A stretch of 64,000 bases of DNA from Alphaproteobacteria bacterium (GCA_963665695.1 OY762427.1:627268-691267); one strand, 5' to 3'. Shown: positions 1 through 53,049, numbered from the stretch's first letter. The notes: generated by a model not told the origin, from the letters alone. Numbers and translations are program-made.

Positions 1-64
1 TAAGTGTAGAATCGCTGAAACGGCGGCGTACGCACGCCGCGCCGAGACGAGGACACCGACACCC

Positions 65-1033
65 ATGTTCGTTCATCGCCGCCGGGGATGGGAAATCCCC
101 GGGAACCGGGCCACGCCCGAGAGCATCTTCCTGCAGCGCCGCGCCCTGGCGAAGACGCTCGCCGCCGGGCCGATCCTGGCCGCCGCCGGGCCGCTGCTCG
201 GCGCCGGCCGCGCCCTTGCCGCCTCCGATCCGAGCGCCGGCCTCTATCCGGTCGAGCGCAACCCGAAATACACGGTGGACCGGGCGCTGACGCCGGAGCG
301 GATCGCCACGACCTACAACAATTTCTACGAGTTCGGCTCCCACAAGCAGATCTCCCGGGCGGCGCAGCGGCTGGAGACCCGGCCGTGGACCGTCGAGATC
401 GGCGGCATGGTCGAAAAGCCGATGACGATCGATATCGACGCCCTGCTGAAGAAGATGCCGCTGGAAGAGCGGATCTACGCCCACCGCTGCGTCGAGGCCT
501 GGTCGATGGTCGTGCCCTGGTCCGGCTTCCCGCTCAAGGCGCTGGTCGATTTCGCCCGGCCGCTGGGCAGCGCGAAATATCTCGTCATGCAGACCTTCAA
601 GAACCCGAAGGTCGCGCCGGGCCAGCGCCAGGTCTGGTATCCCTGGCCCTACACCGAGGGGCTGACGATGTTCGAGGCGGTCAACGAACTGGCCTTCATG
701 GCGACCGGCCTCTACGGCAAGCCCCTGCCGAAGCAGAACGGCGCGCCGCTGCGCCTCGCGGCGCCGTGGAAGTACGGCTTCAAGCACGTCAAGTCGATCG
801 TGCGCTTCGAGTTCGCCGGCAAGCGCCCGGTCAGCTTCTGGGAGAAGCTGCAGGCCCGGGAGTACGGCTTCTGGGCCAACGTCAACCCGGAGGTCCCGCA
901 CCCGCGCTGGAGCCAGGCGACCGAGCGCGATATCGGCACCGGAGAGCGCATCCCCACCAAGCCCTGGAACGGCTATGGCGATTATGTCGCCGCGATGTAC
1001 GCCAACCTGAAGGGCGAGGTGCTGTTCCGGTAG
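65..1033 (+). CDS. msrP: Protein-methionine-sulfoxide reductase catalytic subunit MsrP (YedY), molybdopterin oxidoreductase with Tat signal
   Basis: 322-aa ORF with an N-terminal twin-arginine motif (RRALAKTLAAGPILAAAG). Conserved YedY/sulfite-oxidase-fold blocks are present (YNNFYEFG, RCVEAWSM, NGAPLRL). Confidence 0.85.
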   Translation: MFVHRRRGWEIPGNRATPESIFLQRRALAKTLAAGPILAAAGPLLGAGRALAASDPSAGLYPVERNPKYTVDRALTPERIATTYNNFYEFGSHKQISRAAQRLETRPWTVEIGGMVEKPMTIDIDALLKKMPLEERIYAHRCVEAWSMVVPWSGFPLKALVDFARPLGSAKYLVMQTFKNPKVAPGQRQVWYPWPYTEGLTMFEAVNELAFMATGLYGKPLPKQNGAPLRLAAPWKYGFKHVKSIVRFEFAGKRPVSFWEKLQAREYGFWANVNPEVPHPRWSQATERDIGTGERIPTKPWNGYGDYVAAMYANLKGEVLFR

Positions 1034-1035
1034 GG

Positions 1036-1809
1036 ATGCGCTGCGCCGCACGCTGCCTGGCCGTTCTCGCCGGCCTGCTGCCGGCGGCGCCGCCCGCGTC
1101 TGCGATCGCCGAAGACGTCGATCTCGAGCTCGTTCTCGCCGTCGATATTTCCGGCAGCGTCGATCGTGTCGAGGCCCGGCTCCAGCGGCAGGGCTATCTG
1201 AAGGCGCTGGTCGATCCGCAGGTCGTCCGGGCCGTCACCGGCGGCGAGCGGCGCAGGGTCGCCGTTACCTACATGGAGTGGGCCGGCGCGCATTTTCAGA
1301 ACGTCGTCGCCGACTGGACGGTGGTGCGCGACATGGCGACGGCCAAGGCCTTTGCCGCAACGGTCGCCGAATACCCGGTATCGACCGAGCGCTGGACCTC
1401 GATCAGCACCGCCATCGACTACGCGCTCGGCCTGTTCCGGGCCAACCCCCATCGCGGCGCGCGCAAGGTGCTCGACCTTTCGGGCGACGGCCGGAACAAC
1501 AACGGCGGCCCGCTGGCGCCGGCGCGCGCCCGGGCCCTCGCGGCCGGCGTGACGATCAACGGCCTGCCGATCGTCAACGACCGGCCCAACCCGTGGGGCC
1601 TGCCGCCGCCGAAGGACCTCGACCGCTACTATTTCGAGCGGGTGATCGGCGGACCCGGCGCCTTCATCGTCGTGGCGCGCGGCTTCCGCAGCTTCGGCGA
1701 CGCTGTGAAAGCGAAGCTGGTCATGGAGATCGCCGGCCCGGCCCGCCCGCCACCGGTTCTTGCCCAACGCAGCCGTTCCCAACCCGGCTTTGCCCGGCGC
1801 CTGCCTTGA
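1036..1809 (+). CDS. DUF1194 / vWA-like secreted protein
   Basis: ATG at 1036 lies inside the listed 88..1809 frame. Signal-peptide-like N-terminus (MRCAARCLAVLAGLLPAAPPASA) and a DLELVLAVDISGSVD block typical of DUF1194 / vWA MIDAS-like proteins. It starts 2 nt after the msrP stop. Confidence 0.65.
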   Translation: MRCAARCLAVLAGLLPAAPPASAIAEDVDLELVLAVDISGSVDRVEARLQRQGYLKALVDPQVVRAVTGGERRRVAVTYMEWAGAHFQNVVADWTVVRDMATAKAFAATVAEYPVSTERWTSISTAIDYALGLFRANPHRGARKVLDLSGDGRNNNGGPLAPARARALAAGVTINGLPIVNDRPNPWGLPPPKDLDRYYFERVIGGPGAFIVVARGFRSFGDAVKAKLVMEIAGPARPPPVLAQRSRSQPGFARRLP

Positions 1810-1918
1810 CCGCGCCGCCATCCGGCGACGGAATCGGCCGGGCGCGGCGTACCGGGATCAGAGGGCCGTCGACGCCCCGGTTCGACCGCCCGGACCAGAC
1901 ACGGGAGACCGCTTCGCC

Positions 1919-2563
1919 ATGAGATCCCTTCCCCTCCTGCTCGCCGCCGGGCTGATCGGCCTGACCGCAACCGCAGCCCCCGCCGACGCCCATCGCGGGC
2001 TGCGCCTGTTCGACCGGGCCGACGCCGACAAGGACGGCAAGGTCACCGCCGCCGAATTTGCCGCCGCGCGCAACGCCCGGTTCGCCCAAATCGACGCCGA
2101 CAAGGACGGCGCGCTCGAGGTATCCGAACTTCGCGCGTGGCGGCGGGCCTGGCCGGCGCGCTTCCGCGACGCCCGCTTCAAGGCGCTCGACGGCGACGGC
2201 GACGGCAGGCTCGGCGTCGAGGAATATACCGCCCGGCGCAAGGCGGCCTTCGAACGGATCGACGCCGACAAGGACGGCGCGGTCGACAAGGCGGAGTTCG
2301 ACGCCGCTTTCGAGAAGATCCGCGAACGCATGCTGGCCTATTACGGCCGCGGCGACCGCCGCCATCGCTGGCGCGACGGCAAACGCCGCACGATGCACCG
2401 CCGCCCGGACCTGAACGGCGACGGCAAGGTGACCCGCGCGGAATTCGACGCGCTGGGCAGCCTGATCTTCCTGCGCCTGGACGGCGACGGCGACGGCGCC
2501 GTTACCCGGAAGGAGATGCGGACGGCGCGACGGCATTTCGACCGCGGCGACCGCGATCGCTAG
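1919..2563 (+). CDS. Secreted EF-hand calcium-binding protein with six canonical EF loops
   Basis: Signal peptide (MRSLPLLLAAGLIGLTATAAPADA). Six DxDxDG loops: DADKDGKVT, DADKDGALE, DGDGDGRLG, DADKDGAVD, DLNGDGKVT, DGDGDGAVT. ATG at 1919 is inside the 1760..2563 frame. Confidence 0.8.
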   Translation: MRSLPLLLAAGLIGLTATAAPADAHRGLRLFDRADADKDGKVTAAEFAAARNARFAQIDADKDGALEVSELRAWRRAWPARFRDARFKALDGDGDGRLGVEEYTARRKAAFERIDADKDGAVDKAEFDAAFEKIRERMLAYYGRGDRRHRWRDGKRRTMHRRPDLNGDGKVTRAEFDALGSLIFLRLDGDGDGAVTRKEMRTARRHFDRGDRDR

Positions 2564-2731
2564 GCGGCGCAGCGCCGGCGGCGCCCGGGGGAAAGCGGGA
2601 GGCGCAGGGTTGCCGGATGCGGCAATCTGACTTAGTTCAGCTTGCGAGGGCCGGCACTGCATTCGACGGCGCCGATCCGCGAAAGCCCGCCGGTCCAACG
2701 TCGGGCGCACCTTCAAACCGGGAGGAGAGAC

Positions 2732-3370
2732 ATGAAAATCCGTACAGACTTTTTCGCCTTCATCACGGTGGCCGCCGCGGCGCTGGTCGGCGCCCCGGCC
2801 GCCCAGGCTGTTGAGATCGACGCAAAAAAACTGATCGGCCACGCCTACTTAAAAAAGGCTGGCGCTGTGAAGAACAAGAAATTGAGTTTCGCCCAATTCC
2901 AAGACTATAACCGGTTGATTTTCTATGTTCATGACCGTAACGGGGACGGAGTCCTTGATCTATCGGAGATGCCGAGCGACTTGCTGGGACCCACGTCTCT
3001 AAAAGCCACGCTTATGGGTTCTTATGACGTACCATGGGTTATGCGCGTGCTGCGTTCGATGCCGTACCGGGAATATACCAACTTTATGACCGGAAAATCT
3101 TGCTCCCTTAAAGAAATTGCAGTCGAGAATTTTCTTATCGGCCCTTACGGAGTATGGCCCAAGTTAGAGGACTGGAAAAAAGAGCAGTTTCGGCGTGAAA
3201 AAGCCGCCCTTCTCCAGCTTCTCGATGCCAAAAAAGACTTCAAAGTGCCCGAAAAGGAATTTCATCTCGTTATGAACCTGGCGTTCCACCAGTTCGATAA
3301 AAACAAGAACGGAGTGCTCGAAAGCGACGAGCTTCCGCATGTTTCCGGTATGTTTGCCCTCGGCGGCTGA
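2732..3370 (+). CDS. Secreted EF-hand-like protein with atypically low GC
   Basis: ATG at 2732 is preceded by GGAGGAGAGA. Signal peptide (AAAALVGAPAAQA). Two EF-type loops (DRNGDGVLDLSE, DKNKNGVLESDE). The mature-domain DNA is visibly AT-richer (~47% GC) than the flanks (~68%). Confidence 0.7.
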   Translation: MKIRTDFFAFITVAAAALVGAPAAQAVEIDAKKLIGHAYLKKAGAVKNKKLSFAQFQDYNRLIFYVHDRNGDGVLDLSEMPSDLLGPTSLKATLMGSYDVPWVMRVLRSMPYREYTNFMTGKSCSLKEIAVENFLIGPYGVWPKLEDWKKEQFRREKAALLQLLDAKKDFKVPEKEFHLVMNLAFHQFDKNKNGVLESDELPHVSGMFALGG

Positions 3371-3387
3371 GGACTCCGGGAACCGGC

Positions 3388-4053
3388 GTGCGTGCCACCG
3401 CCCTGTCCGCAGCGCCCTTCGCCCCGGCGCAGGAGCCTCCGTCCCGGATGACGCCGTCCGGGACGCCTGCGCGGCCGGCGGCCGACAAGGCGGCCATTGC
3501 CGCCGATGCGGCGCTGATGGGCCGTGTCGTTGCGGGCGATCCGGCCGCCCACCGCGCGGTCGTGGACCGGCATCTGCCCGGCCTCGTCGCCTTCGCCTGG
3601 CGCCTGGCCGGCGACCGGGCGACCGCCGAGGACGTCGCCCAGGACGCCATGCTGAAACTGTGGCGCCAGGCGCCGCGCTGGAAGCCGAAGTCGCAGATCG
3701 GGACGTGGCTGCGCCGGGTCGCCTACAACCGGTGCATCGACCTGCACCGCCGGGCGCGGCCGGGCGAGGACATCGCCGGCCTGGACCTGGAGGACCCGGC
3801 CTCCGGCCCGGAGCGCACCCTGCTGGCCCAGGAAGTGTCGGCCATCGTCCGCCGGGCCCTGGCGGCGCTGCCCGACCGGCAGCGCGCGGCCATCGCCATG
3901 GTCCATTTCGACGGGATGAGCAACGGCGAGACCGCGGCGGCCCTCGAAGTCAGCGTCGAAGCGGTGGAATCGCTGCTGGCGCGCGGACGGCGGACGCTGC
4001 GCCAGCGCCTGACGGCCCTGAAACCGGACCTGCTCGAGGAGTTCGTATCGTGA
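3388..4053 (+). CDS. ECF (sigma-70 family) RNA polymerase sigma factor
   Basis: Region-2 and region-4 like blocks: AEDVAQDAMLKLW and a C-terminal HTH (LPDRQRAAIAMVHFDGMSNGETAAALEVSVEAVESLLARGR). The start may instead be the ATG at 3448. Confidence 0.8.
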   Translation: MRATALSAAPFAPAQEPPSRMTPSGTPARPAADKAAIAADAALMGRVVAGDPAAHRAVVDRHLPGLVAFAWRLAGDRATAEDVAQDAMLKLWRQAPRWKPKSQIGTWLRRVAYNRCIDLHRRARPGEDIAGLDLEDPASGPERTLLAQEVSAIVRRALAALPDRQRAAIAMVHFDGMSNGETAAALEVSVEAVESLLARGRRTLRQRLTALKPDLLEEFVS

Positions 4054-4063
4054 GGACCGCGCC

Positions 4064-4570
4064 ATGACTGCAAACGGGACCGCAAACGGGACCGAACCGG
4101 GCAGGGAAGCGGCCGTCCGGGCCCTTGAAGACCTGCTCGGCGCCTACGGCGCCGATCCGGCGCGCTGGCCGGCCGGAGACCCGCGCCGCGCCGCCGCCTG
4201 GGCGCTCATCGACTCCGGCGACGCGGCGGCGCTGCAATCCCTGGCCGCCGCCCGCGCCCTGGACCGGGCGCTGGACAGCACGGTTCCGCCCGCGCCCTCC
4301 GCCGCGCTGGCCGGGTCGGTTCTCCAGGCGGCGCGGCGGACCCGGCCGGGGTTGTCCGGCTGGGCCGGCCCGATCTGGAATCCCGCCTTCTTCAAACCGG
4401 CGGGCGCCTTGGCCTGCGCCATGCTCCTGGGGATCGCGGTCGGCATGTGGTCGCCGGCGCCGGTCTTCGTCTGGAGCGCGCAGGCGGACGGCCTGGAAAC
4501 CGAACTGGCGTCCCTCGGCGCGCTAGACGGCAACGGCGACGATAACGGCTTCGAGGATTTCGCCGAGTGA
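4064..4570 (+). CDS. Anti-sigma factor (single-pass membrane protein)
   Basis: ATG follows GAGGA 11 nt after the sigma-factor stop. One predicted TM segment (ALACAMLLGIAVGMW). Position immediately 3' of the ECF sigma gene. Confidence 0.55.
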   Translation: MTANGTANGTEPGREAAVRALEDLLGAYGADPARWPAGDPRRAAAWALIDSGDAAALQSLAAARALDRALDSTVPPAPSAALAGSVLQAARRTRPGLSGWAGPIWNPAFFKPAGALACAMLLGIAVGMWSPAPVFVWSAQADGLETELASLGALDGNGDDNGFEDFAE

Positions 4571-5061
4571 CGCGCCGCACGCTCATCGTTCTGCTGATCG
4601 TTTCCGGCGCGCTGAACCTGTTCCTCGTCGGGATCGTCGCGGCCAGCGTCATCGTTCATTGGGGCGGGCCGGAAACCGCGCGCGGCCCCGGCCCGCGCAC
4701 GGCCTTCCGCCTGTACCGCGCGGTCGACGGCCTCGACGAACCGGAGCGGGCGCGCGCCCGCGCCCTGCTGGAAGAGAAGCATCCGCAGATCCGCGCCAGG
4801 ATCCAGGCCATCCGCGCCGCGCGGCGGGACCTCAGGCGCCGCATCCGCGACGGCGCCGTATCGCCCGAAACGGTCGAGTCCGGCTTCCGCAGCCTGCAAC
4901 GGGCCCGCGGCGAAGCCCAGGCGGCCCTGCATGCCCTGGTCCGGCAGATCGCCGAGTCCCTGACGCCCGACCGGCGCCAGCGCTTCTACAGCCAGGCCTA
5001 CCGGCCGCGCGGCAAGAAACACAAGCGGCGCAAGGGCGACAGGGGCGAAAGGCGCGAGTAA
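4567..5061 (+). CDS. CpxP/Spy/ZraP-like periplasmic protein (LTxxQ family), membrane-anchored
   Basis: ATGA overlap with the anti-sigma stop. N-terminal TM helix. LTPDRRQRF (LTxxQ-type) motif. Basic C-terminal tail. Confidence 0.55.
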   Translation: MTRRTLIVLLIVSGALNLFLVGIVAASVIVHWGGPETARGPGPRTAFRLYRAVDGLDEPERARARALLEEKHPQIRARIQAIRAARRDLRRRIRDGAVSPETVESGFRSLQRARGEAQAALHALVRQIAESLTPDRRQRFYSQAYRPRGKKHKRRKGDRGERRE

Positions 5062-5075
5062 GGCCGGCGCCCGCC

Positions 5076-6098
5076 CTACGCCGCCGCCAGGGCGTTGAAG
5101 GCGGCGAGCGAACCCTCGATCGCGGCGCGGTCCATATCCTGCACGATGAAGACGATGCGCGAGCGGCGGTCGCCGTCGGGCCAGCCGCTCATGTGGGTCG
5201 GCGGATGGACGACATGCTGGACGCCGTTGATCAGCACCGGATCGGCGACGCCGGCGACGTTCAGCATGCCCTTGACGCGCAGGACGCGCTCGCCGTGGCG
5301 GTTCAGCAGCATGCTCATCCACAGGCCGAACGCGGTCCAGTCCATCGGCCCGTCGAACCGCAGGCAGAAGGAGCCGACCCCGTGGCTGTGGTCGTGGGTA
5401 TGGTCGGGGCCCTCGCCGGACGCCCCGGCGAAACCGTCCAGCCAGCCGGCGACCTCGCGCCGCTTGCCGCCGGGCGCGTAAAGGCCGCCGGTCAGCAGGG
5501 CGTCGGGATCGAGCGGTTCGGCGTCGAGGTCGAGGACCGGCGCGGCGGCGTTGATGTTGCGCACCGCGGCGCGGGCGGCCCGGCCGCCGTCGTCCGCCAT
5601 CGCCGATTTGGTCAGCACGAAGCGGTCGGCGATCGCCGCCTGCTTGACCGATTCGGGATGGCGCTGCAACTGCGCCGCCCCGTTCACCGCGTCGACCGCG
5701 GTGACGACGCCGCCGAGCCGGAAATGATGCTGAAGCACCGGCTCGGCGAGGATCGTATAGGCGATGGGCGTCGGGTCGGCGAGGCCGGACGTCTCGATCG
5801 CGATCCGCCGGAAGGCCGGGATCTCGCCGCGCTCGCGCCGGGAGAACAGGCCCCTCAGCGCGCCCTGCAAGTCGCCGCGGATGGCGCAGCACAGGCAGCC
5901 GCCGGCCATCGGGAGCACACTTTCTTCGGCATGTTCGATCAGGTGATGGTCGAGTCCGACCTCGCCGAACTCGTTGATGAGGACGGCGGTATCGCGCAGG
6001 GCGGGCGATTTGAGCAGCCGGGCCAGCAGGGTCGTCTTGCCGCTGCCGAGGAAACCGGTGACGATGTCGACCGGGATCAGCGTGTCGTAGACAGTCAT
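5076..6098 (-). CDS. COG0523 family GTPase (CobW/ZigA/YeiR-like metallochaperone)
   Basis: P-loop GFLGSGKTT, the GGCLCC CxCC metal motif, a His-rich stretch (HTHDHSHG) and a CobW C-terminal-like domain. Confidence 0.85.
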   Translation of the reverse strand: MTVYDTLIPVDIVTGFLGSGKTTLLARLLKSPALRDTAVLINEFGEVGLDHHLIEHAEESVLPMAGGCLCCAIRGDLQGALRGLFSRRERGEIPAFRRIAIETSGLADPTPIAYTILAEPVLQHHFRLGGVVTAVDAVNGAAQLQRHPESVKQAAIADRFVLTKSAMADDGGRAARAAVRNINAAAPVLDLDAEPLDPDALLTGGLYAPGGKRREVAGWLDGFAGASGEGPDHTHDHSHGVGSFCLRFDGPMDWTAFGLWMSMLLNRHGERVLRVKGMLNVAGVADPVLINGVQHVVHPPTHMSGWPDGDRRSRIVFIVQDMDRAAIEGSLAAFNALAAA

Positions 6099-6123
6099 GG
6101 CGGCCGTCGCCGCGCCCGGACCG

Positions 6124-6444
6124 TCATGCCGGCAGGCCGCCGAGCAGCCGCGGATCGAGCGGATCGCACTCCTTGCCGGTCAGGGCCTCGGCCGCGATCC
6201 AGACTTCGGCGATGTTGCCGACGATCTTCGAGCGGCCGGTGCGGGTCGAGAGCACATAGGAGCCGCCGCTGAAATCCGCGAGCTTCAGGCCGTAATGGCC
6301 GAGGATACGGTTGGCGAGGCGGATGCGCTCCTGGCGCTCGCGCCGCCGCGTGACCTCCTCCTGCCGGCTGGCGAAGGCCTCGGGCGAAGAGCTGCTCTCG
6401 GTCCAGTGGCCGCGCCCGCCGAGCACGCCGCACAGGCTGCACAT
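6124..6444 (-). CDS. Small Cys-containing hypothetical protein
   Basis: 106-aa ORF between the deacetylase and COG0523 genes, same strand. N-terminal CSLCG and a C-terminal Cys. No family recognised. Confidence 0.4.
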   Translation of the reverse strand: MCSLCGVLGGRGHWTESSSSPEAFASRQEEVTRRRERQERIRLANRILGHYGLKLADFSGGSYVLSTRTGRSKIVGNIAEVWIAAEALTGKECDPLDPRLLGGLPA

Positions 6445-6487
6445 GGCCGGCCTGCCCGTGGGGGGCCGCCCCGGCGCCGCCGCCCGG

Positions 6488-7582
6488 TCAGGCGAGCACC
6501 GATTCCGGCCGCGCCGCGCCTTCGCGCGGATAACGCTGGATGAAATCGTCGGCGATCTCGTCGAAGGTGCACCAGCGCACGCCGGGATGCCGGTCGATAT
6601 ACTCGAACACCCGCTCCAGCATGAGCAGGACCTGCGGCCGGCCCGAGACGTCCGGGTGGATGGTCAGCGTGTAGACCGCGTAGTCGTATTCCCGGTAGAC
6701 CCAGTCGAACTGCTGGAGCCACAGGTCCTCGATATCGCGTGGGTTGACGAAGCCGAAGCTGTTCGGCGCCGACTTGATGAACATCATCGGCGGCAGGTCG
6801 TCGAGATACCAGCTGCCCGGAATGTCGACCAGGTCGGTCTCGACGCCGCGCACCAGCGGCTTCATCCATTCCTCCGCCTTCTTCGAATAGTCGATCTTGG
6901 TCCAGTTGTCGCCGACCCGGGCGTAGAAGGGGTGGAAGTCGTTGTTCATCAGGCTGTGGTCGTACTTGATGCCCTTCTTCAGCAGCAGCTCGTTGGTGAT
7001 CGGGCTGAACTCCCACCAGGGCGCGACATAGCCGGTCGGCCGGCGGCCGGAGAGCCGCTCGATCAGCTCGATGCACTTGTCCATGACCGCCTCTTCCTGC
7101 TCCGGGGTCATGGAGATGGGATTCTCGTGGGAATAGCCGTGCATGCCGATCTCGTGGCCGGCGTCCACCACCATTTTCATCTGTTTCGGGAAGGTCTCGA
7201 TCGAATGGCCGGGGATGAACCAGGAGGTCCGGATGCCGAACTTGTCGAACAGCCGGACCATGCGCGGCGAACCGATTTCGCCGGAGAACAGGCCGCGCGA
7301 GATGTCGCAGGGCGAATCCTCGCCGCCGTAAGAGCCGAGCCAGCCGGCGACCGCATCGACGTCGACGCCGATGGCGCACAATATGTCCTTCTTGCCGCCG
7401 CCCGAGGCCGCCGAGGCCGGCGCGGGGCGGTTGGGCGCAGCCAGCGGCGCGCCCCCGCCGGGCGCCCGGCCGTCCCGGTCTATCAGGGAGCGCGGCCGGT
7501 AGCGCGGCCCGATGCCGCCGGAAGCGCGGGCGCCCCGCATCGAATCGTGGTTCCTGTCGTCGCTCATGTCGTCCTCGTCCAT
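6488..7582 (-). CDS. Polysaccharide deacetylase (NodB-fold) family protein, PuuE/allantoinase-like
   Basis: NodB-type motifs ([25 protein letters not shown]). Low-complexity N-terminus. The real start may be the ATG at 7567, which has GAGGA 5 nt upstream. Confidence 0.75.
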
Positions 7583-7709
7583 CGGGGTTCGCCGTCGACG
7601 GAAGAGTGTCGATTTTTGTCCGCAAGCGCAATGGGGGGATGCGCGGGCGGGCGCAGGTTCGCCGGGCGGCCGGTCCTTCTCGCTTCGAATCCGGGGCGCC
7701 GTCCGCCGC

Positions 7710-8828
7710 TCACCGCGCCAGCAGCGCGGCCAGCCCGGCTTCCTCCGCCGCGGCGATGGCGCGATCCTGGTGGGGCTGGAGAGCCTGCCAGGGGTTGCCG
7801 GCCAGCGCCGGCAGGAACGGATCGGTCACGTCTGTCGTCTCGCCGGTCAGCGCCTCGAACACGGCAAGCGCCATGAAGGGCACGATATGGGGCGCATAGC
7901 CGCCCTCGTGCAGCATGACGATCCGCCCGCCGCACAGGTCGTCCGCCGCCGCCATCAGCAGTTCGGTCATCCGGCGGAAGCTCCCGCTGGTCAGCATCAT
8001 GCGGGCGAGCGGATCGTGGCCGCCGGAATCGAAGCCGCTGGGCACGAAGATCATGTCCGGCCGGAAGGCGGTGAGCGCCGGCAGCACGACGCGCTCGAAC
8101 GCCGCCAGATAGGCGCCCTCGCCGGAGCCGGGCGGCAGGGGAATGTTGATATTGGTCCCGGCGCCTTCGCCTTCGCCGGTTTCTCCGGCCGCGCCGCTGT
8201 CCGGCGGGAAGGCGCAGTCCTGGTGCAGCGAGATCGTGAGCGCGCGCGGATCGGCCCGGAAGGCCGCCTGGGTGCCGTTGCCGTGATGGGCGTCCCAGTC
8301 GACGAAGGCGATGCGCTCCGGCCCGGCGGCGTCCAGCGCATACATGCCGGCGATGGCCGCGTTGGCGTAGATGCAGAAGCCCATGGCCTCGTCGGGCTCG
8401 GCGTGATGGCCGGGCGGCCGGTGCAGGCAATAGGCGTTGTCGACCGCGCCGGCGAGCACGGCGTCGACCGCCGCGATGCCGGCGCCGGCGGCGAGGCGGG
8501 CGATCCCTTCCCCGTCCGCGCCGACCCGGGTGGTGGCGAAGCGCCGGGCGACGTTGCCGCCGCCCGCTTCGCTGACCCGTCGGACACGGTCCAGATGCGC
8601 CTGCGTATGGACGCGCAGCAGGTCGGCATCGCTCGCCGGCGCCGGTGCAATCGTGACCAGCGACCGGGAAAGCCCGCTCGCGTCCAGCAGGTTCTTGATC
8701 CGCCGCTTGCCCGGCGCGCTTTCCGGCGGCTCCATCGGCTCCATCCAGTCGAGCCCGCCGATCGGGCCGAAGCGGGCGCCGGTGTCGTGCCACATGAAGC
8801 GCTCGTCCCAGACCAGGCCGGTCGTCAT
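7710..8828 (-). CDS. Histone deacetylase-family Zn amidohydrolase (AcuC / acetylpolyamine amidohydrolase-like)
   Basis: HDAC signature blocks: [44 protein letters not shown]. Confidence 0.8.
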
Positions 8829-46007: not shown

Positions 46008-47903
46008 ATGCCAGCCCGCCTGATCCAGACCAACACCGCGCCGTTCAAGAAGGTCGAGGTCGATCCCGTCACCCTCGACATCATCGAGAACGCGATGCGC
46101 AACGCGCGCACCGAGATGGACGCCGTGCTGTTCCGCACCGCCATGTCGCCCGGCATCCGCGAGCAGCACGACGCTTTCCCGATGATCGCCAACGCCGAGG
46201 GCAAAATGGTCGTCGGCCAGTTCGGCTCCTTCTTCTGGGGCTTCCAGCAGGGGTACGACGGCGAGATCGAGGAAGGCGACGTCTTCCTGACCAACGATCC
46301 CTATTCCTGCAACGGCGCGGTCAGCCATCTGAACGACTGGCTGACCATGATGCCGATCTATATCGAAGGCCGGATCGTCGCCTGGGCCGCCATGTTCGGC
46401 CATATGACGGACATCGGCGGCAAGGTGCCGGGCAGCCTGCCGACCGACGCGGCGCAGATTTTCGAGGAAGGCATCCAGATCCCGCCGGTCAAGATTTACC
46501 GCAAGGGCAAGCTGAACGAGGAAATCCTCGAACTCATCCTGCGCAACTGCCGCCTGCCGGACTGGAACCGCTCGGACTTCAACGCCGTCGTCGCCGCCCT
46601 GCGCCTGGCCGAGCGGCGGGTGCACGAGATGGCCGAGCGCTTCGGGGTCGACGAGCTCAACGCGGCGATGGCCGAGATGCTCGACCGCAACAAGCGGGCG
46701 ATGAGCGCGATCCTCCAGATGGTGATCCCGGAATCGCGCCAGTATTTCGAGGACTTTATCGACGACGACGGCCTCGGCATGGGCCCCTACAAGATCGCCT
46801 GCACCATGTGGCGCGAGGGCGAAAAGGTGGTCTTCGATTTCGAGGGCACCGATCCGCAGTCGATCAGCTCGGTGAACTTTCTCCTCAACGAGGAGATGTT
46901 CAAGATGTTCCTCGGCTCCTTCTTCATCAACATTTTCGACCCGCAGATCCTGTTCAACGACGGCTTCTACGACCTGGTCGACGTGCGCATTCCGCGGGGC
47001 ACCATCCTGAAGCCGGTCCGGCCGGCCGCGCTCTCTTCGCGCACCCACATGCTGGCGCGCATCTTCGACATCATGAGCGGCCTGCTCGGCCAGGGTTCGC
47101 CCGAGGCGCTGTGCGCCGCCGGCTTCTCCGACAGCCCGCACTTCATGTATTCGGGCTACGACAAGACCGGCGAATGGTATCAGCTCTACCAGATCGGCTT
47201 CGGCGGCGTGCCGGGCCGGCCGGCGGGCGACGGGCCGGACGGCCATTCCCTGTGGCCGTCCTTCACCAATGTGCCGAACGAGTTCCTCGAGGCCTATTTC
47301 CCGCTGCGCATCGTGAAATACGAGACGATCGCCGACAGCGGCGGCCCCGGCGCGCACCGGGGCGGCAACGGCCTCTCGATGGGCTACCAATTCCTGGAGC
47401 CGGGCGAAATCTCGATCCACGACGACCGCTGGCTGACCCATCCCTGGGGCGTCAGCGGCGGCCTGCCCGGCCGGCGCAGCACCAAGCTGATGGTGCGCGC
47501 CGACGGCTCGGAGCAGTGGATGGAGTCGAAGTGCGACCGTATCCGTGTCGAACCCGGCGACACGCTCTACTTCAACACCTGGGGCGGCGGCGGCTGGGGC
47601 GACCCGCTGGAGCGCGACGCCGAGCGGGTGGCGCTGGATGTGCGCCGCGGCCTGGTGACGCGCGACGGCGCCCGGCGCTACGGCGTGGTGCTGGATGACG
47701 ACCTGGGCGTGAACGCGCGCGATACCGGGACCCTGCGCAGCCGCATGGCGGCCGAGCGCGGCGACGTCGCCCTGTTCGACACCGGCGGCACGGTCGAGGA
47801 GCTCAAGGCGCGCTGCAAGGCCGACACCAGCCTCGATCCGCCGCGCCAGCCCGTCTTCCAGAAATGGATGCAGGCCCAGCCGATGAAGCTGGCGGCGGAA
47901 TAG
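46008..47903 (+). CDS. hyuB: Hydantoinase/oxoprolinase family, B subunit (second copy)
   Basis: Canonical HyuB N-terminus (VDPVTLDIIENAMRNARTEMDAVLFRTAMSP) and a FLTNDPY block. RBS GGGAGACAGCAGCC. Confidence 0.85.
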   Translation: MPARLIQTNTAPFKKVEVDPVTLDIIENAMRNARTEMDAVLFRTAMSPGIREQHDAFPMIANAEGKMVVGQFGSFFWGFQQGYDGEIEEGDVFLTNDPYSCNGAVSHLNDWLTMMPIYIEGRIVAWAAMFGHMTDIGGKVPGSLPTDAAQIFEEGIQIPPVKIYRKGKLNEEILELILRNCRLPDWNRSDFNAVVAALRLAERRVHEMAERFGVDELNAAMAEMLDRNKRAMSAILQMVIPESRQYFEDFIDDDGLGMGPYKIACTMWREGEKVVFDFEGTDPQSISSVNFLLNEEMFKMFLGSFFINIFDPQILFNDGFYDLVDVRIPRGTILKPVRPAALSSRTHMLARIFDIMSGLLGQGSPEALCAAGFSDSPHFMYSGYDKTGEWYQLYQIGFGGVPGRPAGDGPDGHSLWPSFTNVPNEFLEAYFPLRIVKYETIADSGGPGAHRGGNGLSMGYQFLEPGEISIHDDRWLTHPWGVSGGLPGRRSTKLMVRADGSEQWMESKCDRIRVEPGDTLYFNTWGGGGWGDPLERDAERVALDVRRGLVTRDGARRYGVVLDDDLGVNARDTGTLRSRMAAERGDVALFDTGGTVEELKARCKADTSLDPPRQPVFQKWMQAQPMKLAAE

Positions 47904-50722: not shown

Positions 50723-50892
50723 GGGCGGAATTCCCGCCGCAGCCGCGCCCGACGCCGCACCGGGGCGTATGGACAGGCCCGGGGGGAGGCGTCATATTTC
50801 TGCCGGCTTTGGGCCGATCCTGACTCTCCCCCATAAGGCCGTTCGGGCGTCGGTGACGGCAACGGCGAATTTCCGGCCAGGAAAGGCGTTTC

Positions 50893-51867
50893 ATGGGATT
50901 TGCGCTTTCGCACATCCGGGCGGCGGCGGCTGCCCCTTTGCTTATTGCCGGGGTCCTGGCGGCCGGAACGGCGTCCGAGGCCCTGGCCTGTGCCCGGGTT
51001 TCCGATACGATACTGGTCACCGGCAAACCGGCAACCGGGACCGGAGGCGTTTCCGGTCACGACCTCAGTCCGCCGCTGGACGATTTCGAGGCCTTCGCCG
51101 CCTTCATGCAGAAGGCCCGGGGCGACAAACCGGACTTTCTGCGCGCGAAATGGGAACGCTACCTGGCGATGATCGAGAATTTCGACCTGTCGCGGGACAA
51201 GGAAAAACGCGCCTTCCTGGCGACGCCCCGCGAGGAATTTTCCCGCGCCCGGGACGCCGGCCGGAGCTATGCCCATTCCTTCCTCGATATCGGCTGCGGC
51301 GTGACGATATCCGGCCCGCATATCGTCGGCCGCATGACCTCGGAACTGGATGTCAGGCCGGCGGACAAGGTGCTCGAGATCGGCACCGGCTCCGGCTATC
51401 AGGCGGCATTGCTGAGCTATCTCACGCCGCACGTCTATTCCGTGGAGATCATCCCGCCGCTTTCGGAGACGACGGACAGGATTCTCACCAGGCTGACCGC
51501 GGCCAAATATGCCGAATACGGCCGGATCCGGCGCAAGACCGCCGACGGCTACTTCGGATGGCCCGAGCATGCGCCCTTTGCCAAGATCATCGTGACCGCC
51601 GGGATCGACCATATCCCGCCGCCGCTGCTGAAACAGCTTGCCGAAGGCGGCACCATGGTCATTCCGGTCGGGCCGCCGGGCGCCCAGTCCCTGCTCAAGC
51701 TGACCAAGACCAGGAGCGAAACCGGCCGCGTCCGCATCGAGCGGCACGACATCTACGCCGCACAATGCAGCCGGGCGGAAAAGCAGCGCTGCAAGCGCAA
51801 GGTGAACTTCGTGGCGCTCACCAAGTACCGGGGCGGCAAGACCGTCTCGCGCTGGGGCGGGAACTAG
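50893..51867 (+). CDS. pcm: Protein-L-isoaspartate O-methyltransferase family protein with signal peptide and N-terminal extension
   Basis: SAM-binding LEIGTGSGYQAALLS, plus pre- and post-motif PIMT blocks (HSFLDIGCGVTISGPHIVGRM; EGGTMVIPVG). About 100 extra N-terminal residues, including a hydrophobic leader. Confidence 0.7.
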   Translation: MGFALSHIRAAAAAPLLIAGVLAAGTASEALACARVSDTILVTGKPATGTGGVSGHDLSPPLDDFEAFAAFMQKARGDKPDFLRAKWERYLAMIENFDLSRDKEKRAFLATPREEFSRARDAGRSYAHSFLDIGCGVTISGPHIVGRMTSELDVRPADKVLEIGTGSGYQAALLSYLTPHVYSVEIIPPLSETTDRILTRLTAAKYAEYGRIRRKTADGYFGWPEHAPFAKIIVTAGIDHIPPPLLKQLAEGGTMVIPVGPPGAQSLLKLTKTRSETGRVRIERHDIYAAQCSRAEKQRCKRKVNFVALTKYRGGKTVSRWGGN

Positions 51868-51963
51868 CCCGGATTTCCCACAGCGCCGCGCCGCACCGGC
51901 CCCGCGCGCAGGATATCGTTGCGAAACGGCCCGGACGCGCCCGCGGCCCTTCCGGCATCGCCG

Positions 51964-53049
51964 CTATGTTTGCATCAGGTCCGACAGACGCGCTCGCTTT
52001 GCATCGGCGCCCATGTGCAATAGCATGATGCGATCCGGTTCCGACATGAACCAGGCGAACGAACGCCATGCCAGTTCGCTTACGGAAGCCTTGAAGGCCG
52101 AATCGTCCCGATCCGCATAAGCTGTCAGGAACGCGACCTGCCCTTCGCTGAAGCCCGCTTCTGTTGCGATGGCCATCAGCGCTGCCTGCCGTCCTTCAGT
52201 GACCGGTCCTGCCGTTGCGACGACCTCGACGAACACGAGGAGCGGCTCGACCGGTTCAAGGTCAACCAGAATCGGATCAGGCAGATTCCTGTCTGGCTCG
52301 ATTGCGAGGCCGATGTCCTGTGCCAGGCTGTCGTCCCGCGCCACCACCCGATTTCGGCTCTCGCTCAGCCAGATAACCCCCGGTTGCCCCAGGAACCGCG
52401 CCGCAAACTCTTCAACGACCGCCTTAGAGATCGTGGAACTCGGACCGGGTTCCATGTGCCGTGTCTCCCCATTAGGAAACGTAACGAGAACTTTCGCCTC
52501 GCGGGCGACCGCTCCCCGGCGCATGATCGCAACTCGGGCCAATGCGCCCTTGGACAGGTTCGCTGCCCGCCATTCCTCCGTCAGTGTATTCAACGCATCT
52601 TCCGTCAGCGAAGGATCGAACAGAGCTGCAAAATCCGGCGCTAACGAATAACGCGGGAGTGGCGATGTCGTCGGCAGCCCTTCCCTTTCCTTCACCGCGC
52701 CGATTCGCACCAACCCTTCGCGCAGGGTTTCGTCACGGATCGGCTCGCGCGTGTTCGCGGCGTACCACCTCCCTTCGATGTCGCTCGCTGCCGGGCGCAT
52801 AGACACCTGCAACCATCGTTTCCGTTCGGGGCCGTCTGCCAGTGCCGCCTGGGCATCGGACATTCGCGTCACCTGATCGGGGCGTAGCCAGCAATCCTCG
52901 CCATCTACTGCTCCGATATAAAGCATGACAAAAACCGTTTTGGCCGCGATCTCCCGGGTCACATAGTTTCGGTTCGCCGTTCCCTCGGGAAAGATCGTCT
53001 GCAGGCGTTCGTGGATACCGGCGACCGGCAGTAGCGGCGGCAATGGCAT
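51964..53049 (-). CDS. Type II restriction endonuclease, BsuBI/PstI family
   Basis: The C-terminal domain is characteristic of BsuBI/PstI REases (GVIWLSESRNRVV...LVDLEPVEPLLVFVEVVATAG...). It lies immediately 3' of the MTase, with start and stop codons overlapping. Local GC is lower than the flanks. Confidence 0.7.
   Translation of the reverse strand: MPLPPLLPVAGIHERLQTIFPEGTANRNYVTREIAAKTVFVMLYIGAVDGEDCWLRPDQVTRMSDAQAALADGPERKRWLQVSMRPAASDIEGRWYAANTREPIRDETLREGLVRIGAVKEREGLPTTSPLPRYSLAPDFAALFDPSLTEDALNTLTEEWRAANLSKGALARVAIMRRGAVAREAKVLVTFPNGETRHMEPGPSSTISKAVVEEFAARFLGQPGVIWLSESRNRVVARDDSLAQDIGLAIEPDRNLPDPILVDLEPVEPLLVFVEVVATAGPVTEGRQAALMAIATEAGFSEGQVAFLTAYADRDDSAFKASVSELAWRSFAWFMSEPDRIMLLHMGADAKRARLSDLMQT

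What the first reader, a model, noticed from the sequence alone, without database searches (positions are those of the whole stretch)
1919..5061. Two secreted EF-hand Ca-binding proteins directly upstream of an ECF sigma / anti-sigma / CpxP-like triad
A six-loop canonical EF-hand periplasmic protein and a second EF-hand-like secreted protein are followed, after an 18-nt gap, by an ECF sigma factor, a membrane anti-sigma factor (start 11 nt after the sigma stop) and a membrane-anchored LTxxQ (CpxP/Spy/ZraP-like) protein (ATGA overlap). The arrangement suggests an envelope-signalling module whose input could be periplasmic Ca2+ or another divalent cation. In such a model the EF-hand proteins would act as sensors or buffers, and the CpxP-like protein as an accessory modulator of the anti-sigma factor. 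To my knowledge such a calcium-linked ECF module has not been characterised.
Basis: inference. Interest (0 to 1): 0.55.

Follow-up and report, generated by a model that had tools for sequence, protein, structure and literature searches.

The report
EF-hand-linked ECF290 sigma/anti-sigma operon
This is a bacterial envelope-signalling operon of an already catalogued type (ECF290), in which a secreted calcium-binding protein is encoded with a sigma factor, its membrane anti-sigma factor and a Spy/CpxP-like protein; the one unusual feature here is a second, orphan calcium-binding gene inserted into the operon.

Summary
Window 1919-5061 carries five same-strand genes: a secreted protein with six canonical EF-hand loops (EF1), a second secreted protein with two EF loops (EF2), an ECF sigma factor, a single-pass anti-sigma factor, and a membrane-anchored PF13801 (Spy/CpxP/CnrX-superfamily) protein.

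The EF-hand link is not chance. Of 73 related loci across Alphaproteobacteria, 56 have an EF-hand gene directly upstream of the sigma gene. All 55 tested +2 genes match PF13801. A conserved promoter, CGACGGAAT-N13-CGTT, lies just upstream of the first gene in 56 of 69 loci (window 1825-1853).

The module is not new. Casas-Pastor et al. (2021) classify this architecture as ECF290: +1 one-TM anti-sigma, +2 "heavy-metal resistance" protein, EF-hand at -1 in one subgroup, ACGG…CGT promoter. A 2026 Caulobacter vibrioides paper describes the CaBP-SigV circuit, which responds to Ca2+ and pH and has the same promoter geometry.

Only EF1 belongs to the conserved module. EF2 lies in a low-GC insertion of about 805 nt that nine close relatives lack, and it has no full-length homologue in the two protein collections searched.

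The CnrX Ni/Co ligands are not conserved, so the "heavy-metal" label is weak. How the EF-hand protein communicates with the anti-sigma factor is unknown.

Verdict: a new member of a known kind, of modest interest.

The parts
1825..1853 (+). Predicted ECF290-type promoter. The -35 element is GCGACGGAAT (1825-1834), followed by a 13-nt spacer and the -10 element CGTACC (1848-1853). It lies in the 109-nt gap between the DUF1194 stop (1809) and the EF1 ATG (1919).
   Evidence: The same motif, ACGGA-N15-17-CGT[ACT], lies at the first gene of the module in 56 of 69 related loci, against a background of 31 hits in 1.98 Mb. It is one of only two loose matches in the 64-kb window; the other lies inside a restriction-enzyme gene. 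The geometry equals the 5'RACE-mapped cabp promoter GGAAA-N13-CGTTCA (PMC13171946) and the ECF290 motif ACGG…CGT.
1919..2563 (+). EF1: a secreted (Sec signal peptide) protein of 214 aa with six canonical EF-hand loops. It is the conserved -1 gene of the module.
   Evidence: EF-hand_5 at 6e-30. Six loops. Orthologues at 58-90% identity in the same position in L001-L009, and EF-hand genes at -1 in 56 of 73 loci, all confirmed by Pfam. LanM model 84 bits, below the 135 cut-off.
2566..3372 (+). Lineage-specific insertion of about 805 nt between the EF1 stop and the conserved CGGGAACC element. The borders are approximate. It comprises a 165-nt leader plus EF2.
   Evidence: Alignment with L001 and L004-L007 shows one clean gap. 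Body GC is 0.40-0.53 against about 0.72-0.75 in the flanks, and GC3 is about 0.6 against about 0.9. No similar DNA in relatives. No terminal repeats.
2732..3370 (+). EF2: an orphan secreted protein of 212 aa with two canonical EF-hand loops (mature residues 42-53 and 163-174) and an unmatched middle region.
   Evidence: EF-hand_6 at 6e-10. Only a self-hit among 5.8e9 proteins. In the 1.84e9-representative HMMER scan, only local EF-loop matches with E>=2.4e-9. The AF2 single-sequence model is uninformative, pLDDT 37.
3375..3447 (+). Conserved block CGGGAACCGGCGTGCGTGCC…GGCGCAGG…CCGTCCCGG. It is either the N-terminal 20 codons of sigma (from GTG 3388) or a 5' leader or internal regulatory element.
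   Evidence: Conserved without indels in L001-L008 and open in frame, but the substitutions show no third-position bias, 10/11/9. It does not fit the ACGGA-N15-17-CGT geometry.
3388..4053 (+). ECF sigma factor, 221 aa from GTG 3388 or 201 aa from ATG 3448.
   Evidence: Sigma70_r2, r4_2 and TIGR02937 at 1.9e-31. The best named model is PRK05602 at 197 bits, below its 208 cut-off. The closest solved ECFs include CnrH at 4e-12. Group ECF290 is assigned through its partners and promoter.
4064..4570 (+). Single-pass anti-sigma factor of 168 aa. It has a cytoplasmic N-domain of about 110 aa with the motif LLxAYGADPARWP, a TM segment at about 112-130, and an acidic periplasmic tail of about 30 aa (net charge -9).
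   Evidence: No Pfam match. One TM and an acidic tail of 17-42 aa in nearly all loci. The start lies 10 nt after the sigma stop, and the median gap across relatives is -4. Profiles match anti-sigma factors listed under ECF290: AAP38 2e-15, C. crescentus NA1000 8e-19 (all-loci profile) and 4e-11 (window-clade profile). The AF2 model gives four confident helices at 11-92.
4567..5061 (+). Membrane-anchored periplasmic Spy/CpxP/CnrX-superfamily protein (PF13801), 164 aa. The periplasmic part is very basic (pI 11.6). Its GTG start overlaps the anti-sigma stop (GTGA).
   Evidence: PF13801 at 69 bits. All 55 tested +2 genes of related loci match PF13801. The family profile matches Spy 2e-7, CnrX 1e-4, CpxP 3e-4 and NccX 0.017. 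The CnrX ligands H42, H46, H119 and M123 align to non-ligand residues, and no His, Cys or Met column is conserved.

Best explanation
This is an autoregulated operon of the ECF290 class: P(CGACGGAAT-N13-CGTA) -> EF1 -> [EF2 insertion] -> sigma -> anti-sigma -> PF13801 protein.

Shown by sequence and comparison:
- the gene order;
- translational coupling of sigma, anti-sigma and PF13801;
- a conserved ECF-type promoter in front of the EF-hand gene;
- homology of the anti-sigma factor to ECF290 partners;
- membership of the +2 protein in the Spy/CpxP/CnrX superfamily.

Inferred mechanism:
- At rest, the anti-sigma factor's four-helix cytoplasmic domain holds the sigma factor at the membrane.
- Its short, strongly acidic periplasmic tail is bound by the basic, membrane-anchored Spy/CnrX-like protein, as the CnrY tail docks into CnrX.
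- A periplasmic cue changes that contact and frees sigma. Sigma then transcribes its own operon, starting with EF1.
- EF1, a periplasmic Ca2+-binding protein, feeds back on the switch. In Caulobacter, induction of the homologous promoter by Ca2+ chelation depends on the EF-hand protein.
- The most economical model is CpxP-like titration. Ca2+-free EF1 engages the Spy-like protein or the anti-sigma tail and releases the brake, so the pathway reports low periplasmic Ca2+ or acid stress.

EF2 is a recent foreign or orphan gene that landed in the EF1-sigma spacer. It is probably expressed by read-through and is not part of the ancestral circuit.
For: - Genes and domains.
- Synteny: the EF-hand gene is at -1 in 56 of 73 loci, covering sponge-associated Rhodospirillaceae, Maricaulis, Caulobacter, Brevundimonas, Hyphomicrobiales and Parvibaculaceae. 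PF13801 is at +2 in 55 of 55 tested loci.
- Gene gaps: the medians are -4 nt for sigma to anti-sigma, -4 nt for anti-sigma to PF13801, and 57 nt for EF-hand to sigma.
- Promoter: the motif lies at the first gene in 56 of 69 loci. Where there is no EF-hand gene it sits in front of sigma instead (L011, L018, L035, L047, L052).
- No + strand terminator between 1500 and 5400.
- ECF290 description: a +1 one-TM anti-sigma factor without a Pfam domain, a +2 membrane heavy-metal-resistance protein, an EF-hand at -1 in subgroup s2, and an ACGG/CGT promoter.
- Anti-sigma homology to listed ECF290 partners, including C. crescentus NA1000 YP_002518209.1. The L047 anti-sigma is 100% identical to WP_006273488.1.
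- Spy/CnrX/CpxP homology.
- Charge complementarity: the anti-sigma tail has net charge -9 and the PF13801 periplasmic domain has pI 11.6. The tails are acidic in all loci.
- Caulobacter data (PMC13171946): CaBP is periplasmic; the promoter GGAAA-N13-CGTTCA was mapped by 5'RACE; EGTA induction depends on CaBP; SigV induces cabp and itself; the authors left the membrane component unidentified.
Against: - No expression or interaction data exist for this organism.
- About 14 assessable loci have the sigma/anti-sigma/PF13801 core without an EF-hand gene. The EF-hand protein is therefore dispensable for the core switch and could be only an output.
- In C. vibrioides, cabp and sigV were reported to be transcribed separately, with an internal sigV promoter, so co-transcription here is not assured. 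A conserved block of unknown role sits before the sigma ATG.
- Mature EF1 is basic overall (pI 10), which does not favour simple electrostatic binding to the basic Spy-like protein.
- Fold searches did not recover a known anti-sigma domain for the +1 protein.
- That YP_002518209.1 is CCNA_02836, the gene next to sigV, rests on my recollection of the accession/locus-tag offset and was not checked.
Confidence: 0.72

Rival explanations
1. EF1 is only a regulon output, for example a periplasmic Ca2+ buffer or envelope stabiliser made when the sigma factor fires. It has no sensing or feedback role. The signal is sensed entirely by the PF13801 protein and the anti-sigma factor.
For: The sigma-type promoter sits in front of EF1, as for any target gene. 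The core triad exists without an EF-hand gene in about 14 loci. EF-hand proteins at -1 vary widely in length (99-377 aa) and loop number (2-6), which suggests loose constraints.
Against: In Caulobacter, deleting cabp lowers EGTA induction of the promoter and overexpressing it raises sigV expression, so feedback exists there. The -1 position has been retained across orders of Alphaproteobacteria.
Confidence: 0.3
2. The module is a transition-metal (Ni/Co/Zn/Cu) stress sensor of the CnrYXH type, as the Pfam name 'heavy-metal resistance' and the ECF290 summary suggest. The EF-hand protein would be a bystander or a metal-binding accessory.
For: PF13801 match at 69 bits. The family profile matches CnrX and NccX. 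Casas-Pastor et al. propose metal detoxification for ECF290. A CobW/COG0523 metallochaperone-type GTPase lies convergently downstream.
Against: The CnrX ligands H42, H46, H119 and M123 align to non-ligand residues, and no His, Cys or Met column is conserved among 55 family members. The best solved match is the chaperone Spy, not CnrX. No efflux pump genes are nearby. The anti-sigma factor is long, with about 110 cytoplasmic residues and four helices, unlike CnrY. The gene order also differs. The CobW gene is conserved only in the two closest relatives.
Confidence: 0.12
3. EF2 is an assembly artefact or a decaying, non-functional insertion rather than a real gene.
For: It has foreign composition (GC3 about 0.6 against 0.9), no homologue anywhere, a poor structure prediction, and a single occurrence on one 3.8-Mb contig.
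Against: The 212-codon ORF is intact, with a strong Shine-Dalgarno sequence, a canonical signal peptide with an AQA cleavage site and two perfect EF loops. The junctions are clean and preserve both the EF1 stop and the conserved element before sigma. The 5' part has host-like codon usage.
Confidence: 0.15

Closest known systems
ECF290 group of ECF sigma factors (Casas-Pastor et al. 2021, NAR 49:986; formerly part of ECF20), especially the subgroup with an EF-hand at -1
   Same: - A +1 single-TM anti-sigma factor without a Pfam domain, carrying the YGADxxRWP-type motif.
- A +2 membrane-bound PF13801 protein.
- An EF-hand gene at -1.
- A promoter with ACGG at -35 and CGT at -10.
- Alphaproteobacterial distribution.
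   Different: The wider context listed for subgroup s2 (DUF983 at -2, NUDIX at -3, GGDEF-REC at +3) is absent. Here -2 is DUF1194, -3 is MsrP, and +3 is a convergent CobW-like gene. An orphan gene, EF2, is inserted between -1 and sigma. The sigma factor itself could not be scored with the ECF Hub models.
CaBP-SigV circuit of Caulobacter vibrioides (dos Santos & Simao 2026, PMC13171946)
   Same: A periplasmic multi-EF-hand protein is encoded directly upstream of an ECF sigma gene. The promoter geometry is GGAA(A/T)-N13-CGT(T/A). Caulobacter spp. loci L049 and L057 of this family have GGAAA-N13-CGTTGA, with the ATG about 40 nt from the expected start site. The C. crescentus ECF290 anti-sigma factor is homologous to the window's.
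   Different: CaBP is 133 aa with three loops, whereas EF1 is 214 aa with six. In Caulobacter an internal sigV promoter lies inside cabp and the two genes were reported as monocistronic. The paper did not identify the anti-sigma factor or the PF13801 partner. Orthology was not tested on the C. vibrioides DNA itself.
CnrYXH / NccYXH of Cupriavidus metallidurans (ECF291)
   Same: Three-part logic: an ECF sigma factor, a single-pass anti-sigma factor with a short periplasmic tail, and a membrane-anchored PF13801 periplasmic protein. The family profile matches CnrX at 1e-4.
   Different: The gene order is sigma, anti-sigma, X rather than Y-X-H. The anti-sigma cytoplasmic domain is about 110 aa with four helices, against about 45 aa with two in CnrY. 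The Ni/Co ligands are absent. There is no efflux operon. An EF-hand partner is present.
CpxP / Spy / ZraP periplasmic LTxxQ proteins of enterobacteria
   Same: Same superfamily: Spy 2e-7, CpxP 3e-4, ZraP 0.32, and PF07813 in 9 of 55 members. CpxP provides the precedent for a periplasmic inhibitor being titrated away from a membrane signalling protein.
   Different: This protein is membrane-anchored by an N-terminal TM segment instead of being soluble. It is coupled to an ECF anti-sigma factor rather than to a histidine kinase. Its LTxxQ motifs are degenerate.
Lanmodulin (LanM)
   Same: A small periplasmic protein with several EF hands of the form DxDKDG. It partly matches NF053806 (84 bits).
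   Different: The score is below the 135-bit cut-off. The loops lack the diagnostic Pro at position 2 (Ala, Gly or Leu here). There are six loops rather than four. There is no xox or lanthanide gene context.

Membership tests
ECF290 (Casas-Pastor 2021) | ECF sigma factor with sigma2 and sigma4 domains only | tested here: met
   Sigma70_r2 and Sigma70_r4_2 with no extra domain; 201-221 aa.
ECF290 (Casas-Pastor 2021) | +1 gene is a one-TM putative anti-sigma factor without a Pfam domain, homologous to listed ECF290 anti-sigma factors | tested here: met
   No Pfam match and one TM. Profiles match ECF290-listed proteins at 2e-15 to 2e-5 and C. crescentus YP_002518209.1 at 8e-19 / 4e-11. The L047 anti-sigma equals WP_006273488.1.
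ECF290 (Casas-Pastor 2021) | [quoted passage not shown] | tested here: met
   69 bits in the window, and 55 of 55 related loci.
ECF290 (Casas-Pastor 2021) | Predicted promoter with ACGG at -35 and CGT at -10 | tested here: met
   ACGGAATCGGCCGGGCGCGGCGTA at 1828-1851. The motif is present in 56 of 69 loci.
ECF290 (Casas-Pastor 2021) | Sigma sequence scores best to the ECF290 HMM | not testable with these tools
   The ECF Hub models are not available. The stored supplement with ECF sequences holds no ECF290 entries.
ECF290 subgroup s2 | EF-hand at -1, DUF983 at -2, NUDIX at -3, GGDEF-REC at +3 | tested here: inconclusive
   The EF-hand at -1 is met. The other positions are not met in the window, which has DUF1194, MsrP and a convergent CobW-like gene.
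CaBP-SigV circuit (C. vibrioides) | Secreted EF-hand protein gene directly upstream of the ECF sigma gene, with a GGAAA-N13-CGTTCA-type promoter | tested here: met
   EF1 has a signal peptide, and the promoter is GGAAT-N13-CGTACC.
CaBP-SigV circuit (C. vibrioides) | Induction by Ca2+ limitation and acid; reciprocal regulation of the EF-hand protein and the sigma factor | not testable with these tools
   Needs experiments.
CnrYXH-type metal sensor (ECF291) | CnrX metal ligands His42, His46, Glu63, His119 and Met123 | tested here: not met
   The profile-to-CnrX alignment puts non-ligand residues at H42, H46, H119 and M123 (E63 was not resolved). No His, Cys or Met column is conserved in 55 sequences.
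CnrYXH-type metal sensor (ECF291) | Short class II anti-sigma factor (CnrY) at -2 with a metal efflux operon adjacent | tested here: not met
   The anti-sigma factor is at +1 with a four-helix cytoplasmic domain of about 110 aa. There are no efflux genes.
CpxP/Spy/ZraP (LTxxQ) superfamily | Sequence homology to solved Spy, CpxP and CnrX helical hairpin proteins | tested here: met
   Spy 2e-7, CnrX 1e-4, CpxP 3e-4. PF07813 in 9 of 55 members.
Lanmodulin | NCBIfam NF053806 above its cut-off; Pro at EF-loop position 2 | tested here: not met
   84 bits against a cut-off of 135. Loop position 2 is Ala, Gly or Leu.

The most novel reading that the evidence does not exclude
The EF-hand protein, the membrane-anchored Spy/CnrX-like protein and the acidic tail of the anti-sigma factor form a three-part periplasmic Ca2+ sensor. 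In this model Ca2+-free EF-hand protein titrates the Spy-like brake off the anti-sigma factor. ECF290 would then be a widespread alphaproteobacterial Ca2+/acid-sensing pathway, and 'heavy-metal resistance' would be a misnomer for this branch of PF13801. The +1 and +2 genes would be the 'unidentified membrane component' of the Caulobacter CaBP-SigV model. In this sponge-associated lineage, an orphan EF-hand gene (EF2) would have been recruited into the same operon as an extra input.
Probability: 0.3. Interest if true: 0.55.

Novelty: new member of a known kind. Interest (0 to 1): 0.3.

Why it matters
Periplasmic Ca2+ sensing in bacteria is poorly understood. ECF290 is a large group: 6831 relatives of one member's sigma factor scored below 1e-30. 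The only experimental study is the 2026 Caulobacter paper.

The comparison made here adds three things:
- It links that study to the ECF290 class.
- It nominates the +1 anti-sigma factor and the +2 Spy-like protein as the missing membrane link.
- It shows that the CnrX metal site is absent.

These points make a Ca2+-responsive, CpxP-like titration model directly testable. The window itself is an ordinary member of the class, apart from the orphan EF2 insertion. EF2 is a small case study of a foreign or new gene captured by a regulated operon in a sponge symbiont.

Tried and rejected
- Exact-protein look-ups for the anti-sigma factor and EF2 (twice) found nothing on record. The cluster look-up gave no names or accessions.
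- The profile-to-PDB search for the anti-sigma factor found nothing meaningful.
- The AF2 model of EF2 from a single sequence was uninformative (pLDDT 37).
- The Rfam scan of 1-8000 found nothing above noise.
- The EF2 leader RNA fold is unexceptional (z = -0.6), with no classical terminator.
- No target-site duplication or terminal inverted repeats flank the insertion, and BLAST found no source for it in the window or the related loci.
- A second promoter-like match at 52082 lies inside a BsuBI/PstI restriction-endonuclease gene and was rejected as chance.
- No recurrent extra regulon gene carrying the motif was found in the related loci.
- A homologue search with the Caulobacter sp. sigma factor did not return a named C. 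vibrioides protein, so the cabp-sigV locus could not be fetched.
- No paper mentions CCNA_02836 or YP_002518209.
- Lanmodulin identity was rejected.
- A codon-position test of the 60 nt before ATG 3448 was inconclusive.
- Anti-sigma tail length and charge do not differ between loci with and without an EF-hand gene.

Full report
**Observation**

The region 1919-5061 holds five same-strand ORFs.

- EF1 (1919-2563) matches EF-hand families at 6e-30. Its mature part has six canonical 12-residue loops, and it has a Sec-type signal peptide.
- EF2 (2732-3370) matches EF-hand_6 at 6e-10. It has two canonical loops, a strong Shine-Dalgarno sequence and an AQA|V cleavage site.
- The sigma gene (GTG 3388 or ATG 3448 to 4053) carries Sigma70_r2 and r4_2.
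- The next gene (4064-4570) has no Pfam or NCBIfam match. It has one TM helix and an acidic C-terminal tail of about 30 residues.
- The last gene (4567-5061) matches PF13801 Metal_resist at 69 bits.

- The EF2-to-GTG gap is 17 nt, not 18.
- The last overlap is GTGA, not ATGA.
- The LTxxQ motifs are degenerate.

**Organism and relatives**

The window is about 68% GC. Its closest relatives are Rhodospirillaceae or other alphaproteobacterial MAGs; at least one (L004, 'Spongia_Bin9') is named after a sponge, and I take the SB0661 and CO36386 isolate codes to be sponge-derived as well.

Anti-sigma homologues were aligned and used to fetch 73 loci from one genome per species.

**Is the EF-hand link real?**

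- tblastn and ORF calling show an EF-hand gene directly upstream of sigma, on the same strand, in 56 of the 73 loci. All 56, plus EF1, match EF-hand Pfam families.
- Nearly every locus has a gene of about 160-185 aa overlapping or abutting the anti-sigma stop. All 55 tested match PF13801.
- Median gene gaps are -4 nt (sigma to anti-sigma), -4 nt (anti-sigma to PF13801) and 57 nt (EF-hand to sigma).
- The taxa include Maricaulis, Caulobacter, Brevundimonas, Hyphomicrobiales and Parvibaculaceae.

**Promoter**

A motif with consensus CGACGGA(A/T)(A/T)-N13-CGT(T/A) lies within the 400-nt window around the first gene's start in 56 of 69 testable loci. The background is 31 hits in 1.98 Mb, about 0.006 per 400 nt. 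When an EF-hand gene is present the motif precedes it. When it is absent the motif precedes sigma (L011, L018, L035, L047, L052).

In the window the motif is ACGGAATCGGCCGGGCGCGGCGTA at 1828-1851, between the DUF1194 stop (1809) and the EF1 ATG (1919). The only other loose match in the 64 kb lies inside a restriction-endonuclease gene.

No + strand terminator was found between 1500 and 5400. The EF-hand gene is therefore the first gene of a probably autoregulated operon, or at least a direct target of the sigma factor.

**EF2 is an insertion**

- Alignment with five close relatives shows that about 805 nt (roughly 2566-3372) are present only in the window. They lie between the EF1 stop and a conserved CGGGAACCGGCGTGCGTGCC element.
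- The EF2 body has GC 0.40-0.53 and GC3 of about 0.6, against GC3 of about 0.9 in the neighbouring genes. It is the strongest low-GC patch in the window.
- EF2 found only itself among 5.8 billion proteins. In a full HMMER scan of 1.84 billion representatives it gave only local EF-loop matches, with E >= 2.4e-9.
- No terminal repeats, no donor sequence and no informative structure model were found.
- EF2 is therefore a lineage-specific orphan gene, not part of the conserved module.

**What is known**

Casas-Pastor et al. (2021) split the old CnrH-like group ECF20. Their group ECF290 is described as follows:
[quoted passage not shown] - in subgroup s2, an EF-hand at -1;
- a promoter with ACGG at -35 and CGT at -10.

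Their table of ECF290 anti-sigma factors contains proteins with the same YGADxxRWP motif. My profiles match them: AAP38 at 2e-15, Maricaulis maris at 2e-30, and C. crescentus NA1000 YP_002518209.1 at 8e-19, or 4e-11 with the window-clade profile alone. The L047 anti-sigma factor is 100% identical to the listed Asticcacaulis protein. Membership in ECF290 is thus met on every feature I could test. The sigma factor itself could not be scored against the ECF290 HMM.

A 2026 paper (PMC13171946) reports on C. vibrioides:
- CaBP (CCNA_02838) is a periplasmic protein with three EF hands, encoded next to the ECF sigma gene sigV (CCNA_02837).
- The cabp promoter, mapped by 5'RACE, is GGAAA-N13-CGTTCA.
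- It is induced by EGTA and by acid, and the EGTA induction depends on CaBP.
- SigV induces cabp and itself.
- The membrane component that links CaBP to SigV is left as a question mark.

The window has the same promoter geometry (GGAAT-N13-CGTACC). The Caulobacter spp. loci L049 and L057 have GGAAA-N13-CGTTGA, with the ATG about 40 nt from the expected start site. By my recollection of the accession offset, YP_002518209.1 would be CCNA_02836, the gene next to sigV. I could not verify this.

**The PF13801 protein**

A profile of 55 family members matches Spy (2e-7), CnrX (1e-4), CpxP (3e-4), NccX (0.017) and ZraP (0.32). In the alignment to CnrX, the Ni/Co ligands H42, H46, H119 and M123 fall on non-ligand residues, and no His, Cys or Met column is conserved. 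The 'heavy-metal' reading is therefore weak for this branch.

The periplasmic domain is very basic (pI 11.6), whereas the anti-sigma tails are short and acidic in all loci (net charge -2 to -13). This fits docking of the tail on the Spy-like protein, as described for CnrY and CnrX (PMC6851896).

**The anti-sigma factor**

AF2 gives four confident helices at residues 11-92, then the TM helix. Fold searches did not recover a known anti-sigma domain. Its role therefore rests on position, translational coupling, topology and the published classification.

**Mechanism**

Shown: the operon architecture, the conserved promoter and the family memberships.

Inferred: the anti-sigma factor sequesters sigma. 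The Spy/CnrX-like protein holds the anti-sigma factor's periplasmic tail. A periplasmic cue releases sigma, which transcribes EF1 and its own operon. EF1 then feeds back in a Ca2+-dependent manner, possibly by titrating the Spy-like protein as misfolded proteins titrate CpxP.

The main rival is that EF1 is only an output. About 14 assessable loci lack an EF-hand gene, so it is not needed for the core switch.

**Verdict**

This is a new member of a known kind, carrying an unusual orphan-gene insertion.

Noticed in passing
window 2566-3372 (EF2 at 2732-3370): An orphan, low-GC, secreted two-EF-hand gene is inserted exactly in the EF1-sigma spacer. Its 5' part (leader and signal peptide) has host-like composition and its body is foreign-like, which suggests a chimeric or recently captured gene. 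A 22-nt stretch of the leader (2664-2685) is 82% identical to the last EF-loop coding sequence of EF1 (2491-2512); this may be chance.
   Followed up: yes
window 3375-3447: A 60-70-nt block before the sigma ATG is conserved without indels in the close relatives L001-L008 and is open in frame from GTG 3388. It shows no third-codon-position bias, so it could be an N-terminal extension, a leader or an internal promoter. The EF2 insertion ends exactly at its left edge, replacing the A of ACGGGAAC.
   Followed up: partly
L020, L024-L026, L036, L037, L045, L055, L059, L062 (about 50-80 nt upstream of the EF-hand ORF): In these Hyphomicrobiales-type loci the ECF290 promoter is a near-perfect palindrome, GACGGAA-N12-TTCCGTC, so the -10 element is the reverse complement of the -35 element.
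   Followed up: no
L033 2957-3355: Here the promoter motif directly precedes an anti-sigma homologue, and no sigma gene was detected upstream. This may be an orphan anti-sigma factor or a rearranged locus.
   Followed up: no
window 65-1809: msrP (NF003767, 409 bits) is followed, with a 4-nt overlap, by a DUF1194/vWA gene rather than by msrQ. The msrP-DUF1194-EF1 order is conserved in L001-L008.
   Followed up: no
window 5076-6444 (- strand): A CobW/COG0523-type GTPase converges on the operon, with 14 nt between the stop codons. It is followed by a 106-aa protein starting MCSLCGVLGG that has no family match. Both are conserved at 92-95% identity only in L001 and L007.
   Followed up: no
window 51967-53049 (- strand): A BsuBI/PstI-type restriction endonuclease gene (PF06616 at 2.8e-40). 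The adjacent 419-aa ORF at 50769-52025 has no Pfam match.
   Followed up: no
window ~21900, ~37600, ~46700-47900, ~53200: Other, weaker low-GC patches (0.51-0.58 in 300-nt windows) in a window that is 68% GC overall. These may be further foreign insertions.
   Followed up: no
L002 5884-6450: This close relative carries an additional, divergent EF-hand gene (32% identical to EF1) upstream of its EF1 orthologue. EF-hand gene number at this locus therefore varies among the close relatives.
   Followed up: no
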